A stretch of 63,666 bases of DNA, the filler included, from Octopus bimaculoides (Eukaryota), in the NCBI RefSeq assembly GCF_001194135.2. It is 3 parts of 3 records of this genome, joined end to end, with 100 filler letters (N's around TTAATTAATTAA, not from the genome) between each part and the next. Parts side by side here need not be neighbours in the genome. Positions count along the whole stretch, not along the records: positions 1 to 30,607 come from NC_068994.1; positions 30,708 to 54,210 come from NW_026304878.1; positions 54,311 to 63,666 come from NC_069005.1. One strand, 5' to 3'. Numbering within the stretch: position 1 is the stretch's first letter; every line of letters starts with the position of its first letter. Below, piece by piece: positions 6,797-63,600 of the stretch. Made by a program: the position numbers and the translations under genes. The notes beneath the pieces were generated by a model. That model was not told the origin of the DNA. It saw only the letters and a program-made list of their open reading frames with translations, and did not search any database.

Positions 6797-7178
6797 CGTA
6801 AATAAGTAACAAGTATGTACAGGTGCCAATGCATTACAGCCATTTCAAGTGGCTCCATTTCATTGATCAATGAAAACATTACATCAATTTGAAAGAAACT
6901 GTTCTCTTCAGAAGCAGATGACCGTATAGATTTCGAACACAATGGATTCTGCCACAGATATAACATAAGGAAAATAATGTAATTATTTTGCTTTCTATTA
7001 TTGATGTAAATTTGTTAAAAATGGTTTATCCTTTATGTTTGAAATCTATATGGTCATCAGCATCTGAAGAGAGTGGATTCTTTCAAATTGATGTAATGTT
7101 TTCATCGATCTATTAAATGGAGTCACTTGAAATGGCTGTAATGTATTGACACCTGTACATCCTTGTTACTTATTTACG
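6797..7178. mobile_element. fold-back element with ~143-bp inverted arms (6797-6939 / 7036-7178)
   Basis: cgtaaataagtaacaag.atgtacaggtg...gatttcgaaca is the reverse complement of tgtttgaaatc...cacctgtacatccttgttacttatttacg. Confidence 0.9.
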
Positions 7179-7641
7179 TTCTGTTCACCTAATATGGAGT
7201 TGTAAGGACTATACCAAACTGATAAGGTGCCTCAATTTAAGTACCTAATTCAACTGAATCTTAATTATATTTTTTATATATGTGTATGCATGTATGTATA
7301 TATACATGTATATATATGTATATATATATATATATATATATATANNNNNNNNNNNNNNNNNNNNNNNNNNNNNNNNNNNNNNNNNNNNNNNNNNNNNNNN
7401 NNNNNNNNNNNNNNNNNNNNNNNNNNNNNNNNNNNNNNNNNNNNNNNNNNNNNNNNNNNNNNNNNNNNNNNNNNNNNNNNNNNNNNNNNNNNNNNNNNNN
7501 NNNNNNNNNNNNNNNNNNNNNNNNNNNNNNNNNNNNNNNNNNNNNNNNNATAAATTGAATATTAATTCAATTAACATCAATTTAAAACCAATGGCCTAGC
7601 ATATAAAAAATCTGAAAATTCAGAAAAATTGTATTACACGT

Positions 7642-7866
7642 GTATAAGAAGAGATGACCACTAAGTGGACATCCAATATGCTAGAAAGAGATCATCAACG
7701 ACCCAACCACAAAGAAAATAATGTTTTCTAGAAAAAATTCAGCAAAACCAGAACATAAGTGGGCAAGACAAATGAAAATATATTTAATAAAGAATGAATC
7801 ATATACCGGTTGATGCTCTCTTTCTAGCATATCGGATGTCCACTTAGTGGTCATCCCTTCTTATAC
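7642..7866. mobile_element. MITE-like fold-back with 58-bp inverted arms (7642-7699 / 7809-7866)
   Basis: gtataagaagagatgaccactaagtggacatcc...catcaac versus gttgatg...ggatgtccacttagtggtcatcccttcttatac. Confidence 0.9.
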
Positions 7867-7974
7867 GCATATATATATATATATATTCCTTGTACCTCTG
7901 CTTGATGATTGGTGTTAATTTTGTTTGTATTGCGATAACCTAGCAGTTCAATAACTAAAACAAATAAAAGATAG

Positions 7975-8110
7975 AATATAACTAGTATTTATTATATTGA
8001 TCCTGATGAATGAAAGGAAAGGTCAACTTAGGTGGGAATTGAACTCAGAACACAAAGGCCATAACTAAATTTAGTAAGATATGCTATCATGCTGTTCAGT
8101 CAATTTCTGT
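7975..8110 (-). mobile_element. SINE family B (Meta-like), decayed fragment
   Basis: gaaaggaaaggtcaacttaggtgggaattgaactcagaac, reverse complement of the family B core. Confidence 0.6.
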
Positions 8111-8289
8111 TACCTCATACCACCCTTCTCTGCTTCTTAATAATGATAAGTAATTGATTTAATAGCCTTAAGGCTATGTGGGGTAGAAAAAATAATACAA
8201 TTGAAGAAGAAAAAATATAAGTATTTTAAGCAAAAGATAGAAGATAAGTGCATAAGCAACCTTTGAATCACATCCTTAAATTGGATCCT

Positions 8290-59973: not shown

Positions 59974-59999
59974 TAGTCAAACTCTGGATGGAGAGGGTT

Positions 60000-60455
60000 G
60001 CAGCTTGAAGCCATATGTGTAGCAGCAGGATCCGGCTTTTTGTCGTGCTTCCAGAAAGAGACAGAAGGGGTGGTCATAGAATTTCTACGACTTCACCGGC
60101 TCCAATTTCTACCCTCCTAATTCCCTTAATCTTAATCTCATGGATTACTAGGCACGGGGAGTGGTTGGGAAAGACAACCGCTCTGACAACAACACCAAGA
60201 TCAAAGAGATGTTCGAAGATCATCCCAGAAATCTAATGAGGAAAACATGTGCCAGGCTCTGGAGCCATCATGAGATTGTGATAAAGCTGAGGGTGGTTAT
60301 TTGAATAAACTGTAATCTCCCAGCCATAATCTAGTTGTTATCTTTTGATCTTTTAGAATACTTCATTTGTGGATGAAATATTGTGTATTCCCCCCCCCCT
60401 TTTTATGCAAACTTTCAAATTCGGAGCGAACCGTTTCTTGGAGGCACGGTTGTCT
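60000..60455 (+). mobile_element. maT/DD37D-like transposase C-terminal relic and right end
   Basis: NFYDFTGSNFYPPNS.NLN.MDY...IKEMFED.PR.L.RK.CAR......VIKAEGGYFE*. Confidence 0.75.
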
Positions 60456-61949
60456 CCCTTGTGATACTGAAACACAAACTGATGATCGCCAATTATTTTG
60501 AAATTCATTGATCGCTTAACCAGATGACGTCGCGGGATGACCGTTGCCTGTTTTACACTCACTGCTTGTAAAATGAGAGATTTTTCCCAATGTCAAATTG
60601 CAGTGACAAGCAGATTTTAATACGAGTCAAATACGTTCCAAATATATTTGAACTCATCTAAATGTTTATTTAATCCACAACNNNNNNNNNNNNNNNNNNN
60701 NNNNNNNNNNNNNNNNNNNNNNNNNNNNNNNNNNNNNNNNNNNNNNNNNNNNNNNNNNNNNNNNNNNNNNNNNNNNNNNNNNNNNNNNNNNNNNNNNNNN
60801 NNNNNNNNNNNNNNNNNNNNNNNNNNNNNNNNNNNNNNNNNNNNNNNNNNNNNNNNNNNNNNNNNNNNNNNNNNNNNNNNNNNNNNNNNNNNNNNNNNNN
60901 NNNNNNNNNNNNNNNNNNNNNNNNNNNNNNNNNNNNNNNNNNNNNNNNNNNNNNNNNNNNNNNNNNNNNNNNNNNNNNNNNNNNNNNNNNNNNNNNNNNN
61001 NNNNNNNNNNNNNNNNNNNNNNNNNNNNNNNNNNNNNNNNNNNNNNNNNNNNNNNNNNNNNNNNNNNNNNNNNNNNNNNNNNNNNNNNNNNNNNNNNNNN
61101 NNNNNNNNNNNNNNNNNNNNNNNNNNNNNNNNNNNNNNNNNNNNNNNNNNNNNNNNNNNNNNNNNNNNNNNNNNNNNNNNNNNNNNNNNNNNNNNNNNNN
61201 NNNNNNNNNNNNNNNNNNNNNNNNNNNNNNNNNNNNNNNNNNNNNNNNNNNNNNNNNNNNNNNNNNNNNNNNNNNNNNNNNNNNNNNNNNNNNNNNNNNN
61301 NNNNNNNNNNNNNNNNNNNNNNNNNNNNNNNNNNNNNNNNNNNNNNNNNNNNNNNNNNNNNNNNNNNNNNNNNNNNNNNNNNNNNNNNNNNNNNNNNNNN
61401 NNNNNNNNNNNNNNNNNNNNNNNNNNNNNNNNNNNNNNNNNNNNNNNNNNNNNNNNNNNNNNNNNNNNNNNNNNNNNNNNNNNNNNNNNNNNNNNNNNNT
61501 ATATACGTGCGTGTTTGTATATCAGTTTATATAACTCGTAAACACACAAGCTGGTGTGTGTGTGTGTGTATGTATGTGTGCGTGTGTGCGTGCGTGCGTG
61601 CGTGCGTGCGTGTGTGTGATCATCGAGTCGAGTTTACGCAGATTCCCACGACCCCCGTTTTTCTTCCTCTTCCTTTCATTGTCTTCCATGTCATGTGACA
61701 TTTTCCACTCGGTGACATCCAATATCCTCTGTTAACATGTTTTTACAAGGCGGCCATTTTGGCTTCCTTTAATAAATATATTTTGATGATGCATAATTCT
61801 CCATTCTTCTTTATAATGCCATCTCTCATTCTTATTACCGTTTTGTACTCAGCTAACACTTCGTTCTGAAACAACCCGTATTGAGTTCTACACCGGTTTA
61901 TTACTCTCACTATGCCTAAGCAAAATATTAAAACACAATGTCTGTATGT

Positions 61950-62400
61950 ATATGTGCAGAATTGTATGGTCTGTTTTATGTATGTCTTCTCATGCATATA
62001 GCTACATATCTACACATGCTCATATATACTTAAATGATAAATTTTTTGCAGATTTTTACAGTTCCAGTGATGATGGCTTGGATCTGTCTGCTTATCGGTA
62101 TGTATGTGTGCATGCATGTATGTATGTATGTATGTATGTATGTCATTATTCAGTTTATTTCAAGATTTCTTGCCAATAGAGAAAGAACTGGTTTCTAACC
62201 TAGATCCAACGTTCCTCCATTGGAATTTCAACATCAACAACAGGGTATTTTTGTGTGTAAGTATGTATGTATGTATGTGCAGATTTGTATGTTTTATGTA
62301 TGTATTCTCATTCATATAGCTACATATCTAGACATGGTCATATATATTTAAATGATAAACTTCTGGAAAGTTTTACAGATTTTTACAGTTCCTGTATGTA
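61950..62400 (-). mobile_element. two tandem 5'-truncated RLE-LINE 3' ends, each bounded by (CATA)n
   Basis: reverse complements encode TGTVKICKTFQKFII* and QIQAIITGTVKICKKFII*; UTR homologous to 47361-47595. Confidence 0.75.
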
Positions 62401-63399
62401 TGTATGTATGTATGTATGCATGTATGCATGTATGTATATGGAATGAAAGTGATAAACAATGATGTTTATAAATAAACTTGTTAGCACTTCAAATATGCTT
62501 GAGGCGTATTCGAACATGTAATAAAGCTATTCACTGTATTTTGTCATGGAGAAAATTTTTCGCTGCAGACAATTAGGTGCAAACAAATATTGTTATATTT
62601 GGGGGATGGTCGTCTTTTGCCAGTTAAATCCACGCTTTATTTATTTGATCTTTACTTGAGTTTTATTATTATTATCGTCATCATCATCATCATCATCATC
62701 ATCATCATCATCATCATTATTATTATTATTATTATTATTATTTTTATTTTTATTAATTTATTTGTCAGCATTCTTTCGTTACACACTCCGTGACCTCTTC
62801 AATGACCTTCTGTTGTTCGTCTCTTCTCTTCTTTGAGGTGTCGACTTGTCTCCTCCATTTTGTCTTTCAGGAACCTAAAGTGAAGATCTAAATAAACAGT
62901 GCGTGTGTTCATTGCCAAAGAAGCATAGACCAACCGCAGATATAACAATACATACCCACACACATACACACACACACACACACACACATACACACACACA
63001 CATAAACAANNNNNNNNNNGTATATATGTGTGTATGCGTATGTGTGCGTGTGTATATTCTTTAATTCTTTTATTTTTTCAGTTATCTTCGTGATAAAATT
63101 ATTTTAGTATTTTTTACCTTGTCTTATTTTCTTTATATATATATATATATATATATATTGATATACATGCTGTTATATTTGGGTTGGTTATAAATGGGAT
63201 GGTTATATGTATATATATGTACTGCTTTATCTAGGATGGTCATAAATTGGACCTCTGACACGCCTTGGTTGAATATATGTCAATTTGTCTGTCTGTTAGT
63301 CTATATATTTGTCTGCCTGTCTCTCTCTCTCACTCTCTCTATCTCTCTCTCTCTTCTTCTCTCTGTTTATCTATCAATTTATCTATCTGTGAATCCTAC

Positions 63400-63600
63400 T
63401 ACCGTTAATTCCTACGCAATTTCTTCTCTCTCCGTTTTTTCTTCTTTTTTCTTTTGTTTCGTTCTCTTTCCACTTTTTCATCTCAATGTTCCTGTCGAAG
63501 AGCGTAGGCTTGAAACGTCAAAGACTTTTCCATTCTTCCCGATCGTCATACTAATACACCCGCTTGTTGCTCCCTCACCTGTCTTATATAGATATATGTC
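63400..63600 (+). mobile_element. Penelope-like pLTR-type repeat, same family as 33390-33513
   Basis: cctgtcgaagagcgtaggcttgaaacgtcaaagac...cgtcatactaatac. Confidence 0.6.
63487..63525 (+). ncRNA. second copy of the CUGUNGA hammerhead-like variant, stem I disrupted
   Basis: CUGUCGA-A-GAGC guag GCUU-GAAACGUC-AAAGAC. Confidence 0.45.

What the first reader, a model, noticed from the sequence alone, without database searches (positions are those of the whole stretch)
6797..63525. Several unrelated small repeat families carry minimal hammerhead-like motifs, many with non-canonical cores
Seen: at least four families show the order stem I / core / extra purine / stem II / GAAA / short palindrome / UH. 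These are 33464 and 63487 (ACGU, core CUGUYGA), 34226 (AUAU, canonical core), 58135 (AAUAUU, G3-C8 swap) and 47514/47658/47806/62181 (ACCGGU, eroded core). Established: Penelope-like elements carry minimal type I HHRs with palindromic stem III that cleave as dimers, and small HHR-bearing tandem repeats (retrozyme-like) occur in animals. Inference: this genome hosts a diversified set of non-autonomous HHR-bearing mobile units (hairpin-type and tandem-type), possibly with lineage-specific catalytic core variants, mobilised by PLE reverse transcriptase.
Basis: partly seen in the sequence, partly recalled or inferred. Interest (0 to 1): 0.75.

Follow-up and report, generated by a model that had tools for sequence, protein, structure and literature searches.

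The report
Variant hammerheads on Penelope retroelement stumps
Most of these repeats are broken-off tail ends of protein-coding Penelope-type jumping genes, each with a hammerhead-shaped RNA whose unusual core letters are shared by nearly all the copies checked rather than being decay and which is predicted, not shown, to cut itself; one listed family is the tail of an unrelated jumping gene and has no hammerhead core.

Summary
Three of the four listed families carry real minimal hammerhead motifs; the fourth does not. Those at 33464, 34226 and 58135 are 5'-truncated 3' ends of Penelope-like elements: longer copies lead upstream to GIY-YIG/RT coding sequence (63487 is an older sister of 33464). 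They are not shown to be non-autonomous units or retrozymes. The odd cores are fixed, not decay: U6 in 99 of the first 100 of 3,600 exact matches; G3-C8 in 88 of the first 100 of 605, C3-G8 in none. Sister lineages keep the canonical core with compensatory stem changes, and a further one has G at the cut site. The start at 6797 is a fifth, canonical-core family. The 47514/62181 family is the 3' end of an R2-like (RLE) LINE and fails the core test. Cleavage is untested: no read-end pile-up at the predicted site, and no genomic copy starts there. I found no natural G3-C8 or U6 core in the papers searched (one key paper was unavailable). This scan reported the G3-C8 swap and variant cores before, in other genomes. 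Verdict: new variants of a known kind.

The parts
6796..7203 (.). Family E inverted pair (minus arm about 6796-7001, plus arm about 6948-7203); hammerhead motifs at 6830-6916 (-) and 7059-7145 (+): canonical core, 6-bp stem II with a 46-nt loop, 8-nt palindromic stem III, A17; both copies decayed
   Evidence: other copies have a 3' tail; no ORF recognised in 1.5 kb upstream of 29 loci
33383..33513 (-). Family A1 3' end; motif 33465-33499 with core CUGUUGA (U6), loop GUA, C17 at 33469; matches the family majority; runs into an assembly gap
63395..63604 (+). Family A2 (older sister of A1) 3' end; motif 63488-63523 with core CUGUCGA (U6); stem I broken in this copy
34095..34353 (.). Family B inverted pair (plus arm 34185-34349, minus arm with tail about 34095-34199); motif 34226-34258 (+), canonical core CUGAAGA, C17 at 34256
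58040..58361 (.). Family C inverted pair between 13-bp direct repeats (58040-58052, 58349-58361); minus arm holds the motif 58135-58185 (family core GUGAACA = G3-C8, U17; this copy decayed); plus arm starts inside the motif and carries the tail
47359..47895 (+). Family D: three tandem 3' ends of an RLE-type (R2-like, probably R4/Dong) LINE separated by (CATA)n; the first starts in the last codons of the ORF; no hammerhead core
62134..62300 (-). Family D, single 3' end, followed by the start of a second, longer copy (about 61945-62095)

Best explanation
Families A1, B and C are 5'-truncated tail ends of three distinct protein-coding Penelope-like elements (A2 and E likely the same), each carrying a minimal type I hammerhead motif that is predicted, not shown, to cleave slowly as a dimer or with help from the element's protein, and family D is the tail of an unrelated RLE-type LINE. 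SHOWN: linkage to RT/GIY-YIG sequence, truncation ladders, tails and inverted arms in B and C, family-fixed cores (U6 in A1/A2, G3-C8 in C), canonical cores and compensatory stem changes in sister lineages. INFERRED: reverse transcription starts 3' of the motif and usually stops early, so the genome fills with stumps; inserted copies come from RNA not cut at this site; selection acts on the few master elements, not on the stumps. INFERRED activity: B likely cleaves (about 0.7); C likely does (about 0.6), since a double change that keeps the 3-8 pair is what selection for the active fold would leave; A1/A2 are probably weak or inactive in Mg2+ (about 0.35 for measurable cleavage) while the fold is still maintained.
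For: B: L094 runs without a gap from RT (Pfam RVT_1, E 8e-7) through GIY-YIG (PF01541, above cut-off) to the motif; other copies reach 400-1500 nt into this body; 23 of 30 EN loci have the B end downstream. C: 7 of 30 EN loci (6 of 29 without the source) have it 750-1200 nt downstream on the same strand, one with no gap; GIY-YIG above cut-off. A1: 10 of 30 EN loci (9 of 29), 850-1450 nt downstream. Background: B 0, C 0, A 5 hits in 707,960 sampled bases. Cores: first 100 of 3,600: 98 UU, 1 UG, 1 AC at positions 6-7; first 100 of 605: 88 G3-C8, 5 A3-C8, 5 G3-U8, 1 G3-A8, 1 G3-G8, 0 C3-G8. Sister A3: A6 in 98 of the first 100 of 274; the fourth stem I pair is C-G in 42 and A-U in 22 of 73 A-lineage motifs. 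Sister C' (EN region 47% identical over 201 aa): CUGAUGA in 11 of 13 copies, with stem II G-C to A-U and stem I U-A to C-G. A1 vs A2: motif 34 of 36 identical, differing only at N7 and loop II, flanks 69 of 100, p = 0.0014. D: RLE C-terminus upstream in 15 of 30 loci, 49% identical to the end of a 1158-aa RT protein whose PDB matches are R2 proteins.
Against: No cleavage shown. Two RNA-seq runs on B and C and one on A1 gave no pile-up of read ends and unbroken depth across the predicted site; these are ordinary cDNA libraries, about 6% read, mostly read-through. No copy begins within 3 nt of the predicted cut (0 of 91 C, 0 of 55 B, 0 of 38 A1; loci biased towards core-bearing copies). The double-hammerhead fold lies 5-22 kcal/mol above the predicted dimer minimum in all seven motifs tested, canonical ones included, and in A1 U6-U7 can pair with A15.1-A14 in a rival fold. 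Every A1 link crosses an assembly gap and the A1 EN scores below Pfam's cut-off (E 0.003). No full-length element with two pLTRs was recovered. A2 and E were not tied to an ORF. The A1/A2 upstream flank is low-complexity; with the downstream flank alone p = 0.014.
Confidence: 0.82

Rival explanations
1. The variant motifs no longer cleave. They are kept as folded protein-binding or priming signals at the Penelope 3' end, so the core can drift (U6, G17, U17).
For: The youngest sampled family (A1, median 2% from its majority sequence; 3,600 exact matches) has U6; sister A3 has G17 in 24 of 30 loci; no genomic or RNA ends at the cut site; in an anole element cleavage was not needed for insertion in vitro (PMC11167929, passages); natural A6C is slow in Mg2+ (PMC3088659 section 8; PMC7151607 first part).
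Against: C and C' differ at both 3 and 8 and keep the pair, while 12 other conserved positions are identical. Each lineage departs from the canonical core in one way only. The C3G/G8C double mutant partly restores cleavage in a Penelope hammerhead, and G17 is tolerated in tertiary-stabilised hammerheads (PMC3884650, listing and passages).
Confidence: 0.3
2. One reading: a set of non-autonomous hammerhead units (hairpin and tandem types, retrozyme-like) moved in trans by Penelope RT.
For: Most copies are under 300 nt and non-coding; E and A2 were not tied to an ORF; 2 of 30 C loci have a same-strand neighbour copy.
Against: A1, B and C lead upstream to coding sequence and have ragged 5' ends. 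Inverted pairs (7 of 30 C loci, 0 of 29 A1) are a described Penelope insertion form (PMC8557442, passages). The only tandem array is a LINE tail.
Confidence: 0.08
3. The non-canonical cores are neutral decay or chance look-alikes in dead repeats.
For: True of single copies (58135, 63487, 6797) and of D. Four U3-A8 one-mismatch hits in the sample against a shuffle mean of 1.6 are probably noise.
Against: Family-level fixation, compensatory changes between lineages, and C3-G8 sites in the sample at 4 and 6 against shuffle means of 0.125 and 0.5.
Confidence: 0.04

Closest known systems
[quoted passage not shown]
   Same: 3' pLTR position, short stem I, extra base between 9 and 10.1, G10.1-C11.1, palindromic stem III, mostly single truncated copies, close opposite-strand pairs; one natural 3-8 covariation (U3-A8) reported
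   Different: G3-C8, U6 and G17 families are not in the parts read; the two core strings were absent from the 2 searchable supplement files (file 1 not searchable)
Anole Poseidon element hammerhead (PMC11167929, passages)
   Same: Penelope hammerhead with a tail; no RNA-seq ends at the cut site; engineered C3G/G8C partly rescues cleavage; protein-assisted
   Different: There the swap is engineered, here it is natural and fixed; A1 and C have a CX2-5CxxC linker (Neptune/Nematis type), which PMC8557442 gives for those clades and not for Penelope/Poseidon
Natural core variants of Perreault et al. 2011 (PMC3088659, section 8 read) and the A6C phage ribozyme (PMC7151607, part 1 of 4 read)
   Same: Natural changes at position 6 and at the 3-8 pair exist; A6C keeps low activity and prefers Mn2+
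   Different: Those are U3-A8 and C6, rare cases such as a phage ribozyme; here U6 and G3-C8 occur in hundreds to thousands of mobile copies
Animal non-LTR retrozymes (PMC7229834 listing; bioRxiv 10.64898/2026.07.22.740005, part 1 of 5 read)
   Same: Type I hammerheads related to Penelope pLTRs
   Different: Retrozymes are non-coding tandem units with a hammerhead in each; none of these families fits
R4/Dong-type RLE non-LTR retrotransposons (PMC7998251 and PMC13282606, passages), for family D
   Same: RT, zinc knuckle and RLE at the C-terminus; ends in a microsatellite; Dong-R4 is reported as recently active in an octopus
   Different: Clade not tested by a tree; the repeat here is (CATA)n, not (TAA)n

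Membership tests
EN+ Penelope-like element (A1, B, C) | C-terminal GIY-YIG endonuclease after the RT, same strand, upstream of the 3' end | tested here: met
   B; C; A1 (below cut-off, links cross gaps)
EN+ Penelope-like element (A1, B, C) | CCHH motif in the endonuclease | tested here: met
   read by eye in the translations and alignment
EN+ Penelope-like element (A1, B, C) | 5' truncation, 3' tail, inverted or tandem partial copies | tested here: met
   B and C show all three; A1 shows truncation only (0 of 29 inverted)
EN+ Penelope-like element (A1, B, C) | Full-length ORF between two pLTRs; clade by RT tree | not tested
   no full-length copy recovered; no tree built
EN+ Penelope-like element (A2, E) | Linked RT/GIY-YIG ORF | tested here: inconclusive
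   none recognised within 1.5 kb; A2 is homologous to A1; E has a tail and inverted pairs
Minimal type I hammerhead (B, E) | Core CUGANGA...GAAA, palindromic stem III, UH, stems I and II | tested here: met
Minimal type I hammerhead (C) | Paired 3-8; U4, G5, A6, A9, G12-A14; A15.1-U16.1; H17 | tested here: met
   pair kept as G3-C8, U17
Minimal type I hammerhead (A1, A2) | A at position 6 | tested here: not met
   U6 in 99 of 100 listed; all other positions met, so a hammerhead-derived variant
Minimal type I hammerhead (A, C) | Stem covariation between lineages | tested here: met
   A stem I pair 4; C vs C' stems I and II; counted by hand and script, no R-scape test
Minimal type I hammerhead (all) | Self-cleavage after H17 | not testable with these tools
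   RNA-seq lays show no end pile-up, which this library type may not reveal
Minimal type I hammerhead (D) | Catalytic core and G10.1-C11.1 | tested here: not met
   CUGANGA in 0 of 33 parsed copies; A before GAAA in 8 of 9; a long hairpin fits instead
Non-LTR retrozyme | Non-coding tandem units each with an intact hammerhead | tested here: not met
   A1, B and C lead to ORFs; the D array has no core
RLE-type non-LTR retrotransposon (D) | RT, zinc knuckle, RLE domain at the C-terminus | tested here: met
   the RT itself is seen in homologues, with only thumb-region fragments in the loci
R4/Dong clade (D) | Placement in an RT tree | not tested
   name rests on recalled motifs and the microsatellite context

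The most novel reading that the evidence does not exclude
One animal genome holds matched pairs of Penelope lineages whose hammerheads differ by single core features (A6 vs U6, C3-G8 vs G3-C8, C17 vs G17). G3-C8 is a working natural ribozyme, while the youngest and very abundant U6 lineage spreads with a near-dead core, showing that Penelope elements need the hammerhead fold but not fast cleavage.
Probability: 0.3. Interest if true: 0.68.

Novelty: new variant of a known kind. Interest (0 to 1): 0.45.

Why it matters
What the hammerhead does for Penelope elements is open. These natural sister pairs give ready controls: the same scaffold with a canonical or a variant core, each with its own protein. 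They also show that searches fixed on CUGANGA miss at least 3,600 plus 605 motifs in this genome. The arrangement itself (hammerhead-bearing Penelope stumps) is known, and one listed family is a false positive.

Tried and rejected
Rfam scan: microsatellite-driven miRNA hits filled the 150 rows shown; no hammerhead among them. The repeat finder was swamped by microsatellites. A Pfam family recalled for Penelope proteins is not in the library. No listed holder of A1 was on record as RNA; two same-species raw runs were laid instead and gave no end pile-up; contigs of organisms C and D gave no match, which proves nothing. A>G and T>C excess in the lay on L278 is not evidence of editing, since reads come from many copies. 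The cluster of C 5' ends at -58 to -54 coincides with where my reference copy departs from the family, so I do not claim it. Energy models do not separate variant from canonical cores. D as an eroded hammerhead: rejected; GAAACC is mostly kept in sister LINE tails, but the supposed core and stem II are not, while a GGAGCC/GGCUC hairpin is. A second GAAA in C' gives an alternative fold without stem I; rejected. The D ORF fragment alone had no Pfam or PDB match and the Atlas could not read it; it was identified through homologues. DNA further upstream of D, and full-length A1, B or C elements, were not obtained. Lunse et al. (about dimeric Penelope hammerhead variants) is not held, so I could not check whether it lists G3-C8 or U6.
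Full report
Setting. The window is a pack of three stretches from a 2.34-Gb, microsatellite-rich animal genome, likely an octopus (recalled resemblance and earlier scan notes; no call names it). I took each listed motif, collected other copies, and followed each family upstream.

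Observation. A relaxed hammerhead descriptor finds 33464, 34226 and 63487 among 5 window sites, against a shuffle mean of 0.2. In 80 evenly spaced 10-kb stretches (707,960 non-N bases) C3-G8 sites with a perfect or one-mismatch core number 4 and 6, against means of 0.125 and 0.5 in 8 shuffles. Hammerhead-shaped repeats are therefore real and common here.

Family A (33464, 63487). With positions 6 and 7 left free, a pattern has 3,600 exact matches and its reversed control none; of the first 100 listed, 99 have U6. The one exception belongs to a sister family, A3, with 274 matches and A6 in 98 of the first 100. Among 73 A-lineage motifs in my loci the fourth stem I pair is C-G in 42 and A-U in 22, while loop II and N7 vary. 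A1 (33464) is young, a median 2% from its majority sequence; A2 (63487) is older, 8%. They agree at 34 of 36 motif positions but at 69 of 100 flanking ones (p = 0.0014; 0.014 for the downstream flank alone), so the motif stayed constrained after U6 arose (inference). A1 copies have ragged 5' ends. One long copy has a GIY-YIG C-terminus upstream; of the 30 best matches to that peptide, 10 have an A1 end 850-1450 nt downstream on the same strand, each across a gap.

Family B (34226). Canonical core, 2-3 bp of proximal stem I, a tail, and frequent inverted arms. Locus L094 runs without a gap from RT through GIY-YIG to the motif, other copies stop at different depths in that body, and 23 of 30 endonuclease loci have the B end downstream.

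Family C (58135). The window copy is decayed, but with positions 3 and 8 free there are 605 matches; of the first 100, 88 are G3-C8 and none C3-G8. Upstream lie a microsatellite-rich 3' region and a Penelope ORF with a CX3CxxC linker and GIY-YIG; 7 of 30 endonuclease loci have the motif downstream. A sister element, 47% identical over 201 residues, has at its own 3' end a hammerhead with C3-G8 in 11 of 13 copies found in 19 loci, the same extra G and one swapped stem II pair. Twelve other conserved positions are identical, so the two core changes fall exactly on the one pair. The window insertion is an inverted pair between 13-bp direct repeats, a form described for these elements (PMC8557442, passages).

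Family E (6797). An inverted pair of a fifth family with a canonical core in 21 of 27 parsed copies, a long loop II, an 8-nt palindrome and a tail. No ORF was recognised upstream.

Family D (47514, 47658, 47806, 62181). In 15 of 30 loci a zinc-knuckle/RLE C-terminus lies directly upstream. It is 49% identical to the end of a 1158-residue RT protein whose solved relatives are R2 proteins. None of 33 parsed copies has CUGANGA; a 5+9-bp hairpin fits instead, with A-U, G-U and G-C at one pair. The array is three LINE tails in a (CATA)n tract.

Mechanism. Shown: identity, linkage and fixed cores. Inferred: copying starts 3' of the motif and usually aborts, leaving stumps; no copy starts at the predicted cut (0 of 91, 55 and 38, biased loci), so inserted copies derive from uncut RNA, as in the anole element, where cleavage needed the protein and was dispensable for insertion in vitro (PMC11167929, passages). 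That paper also reports partial rescue by C3G/G8C, which makes C plausibly active. U6 has no compensation, natural A6C is slow in Mg2+, and U6-U7 can pair with A15.1-A14 in A1, so A1 is probably weak. Against activity: no read-end pile-up for B, C or A1, and predicted double-hammerhead folds are never the minimum; neither test is decisive.

Prior art. The architecture matches PMC4209133 (parts 1-2 read; consensus seen in supplement file 2). Natural U3-A8 and A6C are in print. Searches for hammerhead with G3-C8, C3G and G8C, A6U, G3C8 or natural variant, octopus and pLTR terms showed, in the listings and the passages I opened, engineered G3-C8 only and no natural U6; most listed papers were not opened. 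The cores were absent from the searched supplements of PMC4209133 and PMC8557442. Lunse et al., on dimeric Penelope hammerhead variants, and one supplement file could not be seen and may bear on novelty. Earlier notes of this scan report the G3-C8 swap and variant-core tails in other genomes and Penelope fold-backs in this one; I had reached my reading first, and one note prompted the search for C's canonical sister.

Verdict. Observation partly confirmed, interpretation partly supported. New variants of a known kind; interest 0.45.

Noticed in passing
L401-L430 (family A3): A subfamily has G at the cleavage position 17 in 24 of 30 loci with an otherwise canonical core; no ORF link found by a short A1 peptide.
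   Followed up: partly
L162, L196, L215: Another abundant hammerhead family, 3 copies in the 708-kb sample, canonical core in 2 (4-bp stem I, 6-bp stem II, U17).
   Followed up: no
L195 (minus, 4099); L168, L177: Further A-lineage members: one with A6 and a G-C fourth stem I pair, and U6 copies with loop GUAG or similar and A17.
   Followed up: partly
window 46311-46690 and 47890-48235: 3' ends of sister RLE-type LINEs beside the D array, ending in CATA repeats; they share the loop string GAAACC-like and the hairpin.
   Followed up: partly
window 46948-47313 (-): 122-residue frame with three C2H2-like fingers, probably a LINE C-terminus (recalled).
   Followed up: no
window 18176-18496 (+); 36695-37144 (+): Fragments resembling a Tc1/mariner transposase and an L1/Tx1-type zinc-binding region (recalled).
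   Followed up: no
window 54830-54873 (+), 55429-55490 (-): Two U3-core descriptor hits (one with an 8-nt palindrome and C17) not checked for family membership.
   Followed up: no
window 18625-19247: Recent 316-bp tandem duplication, 96% matches.
   Followed up: no
L278:1376-1544, runs X23 and X24: RNA reads span the inverted junctions of family C copies, so these fold-backs are transcribed and could form double-stranded RNA.
   Followed up: no
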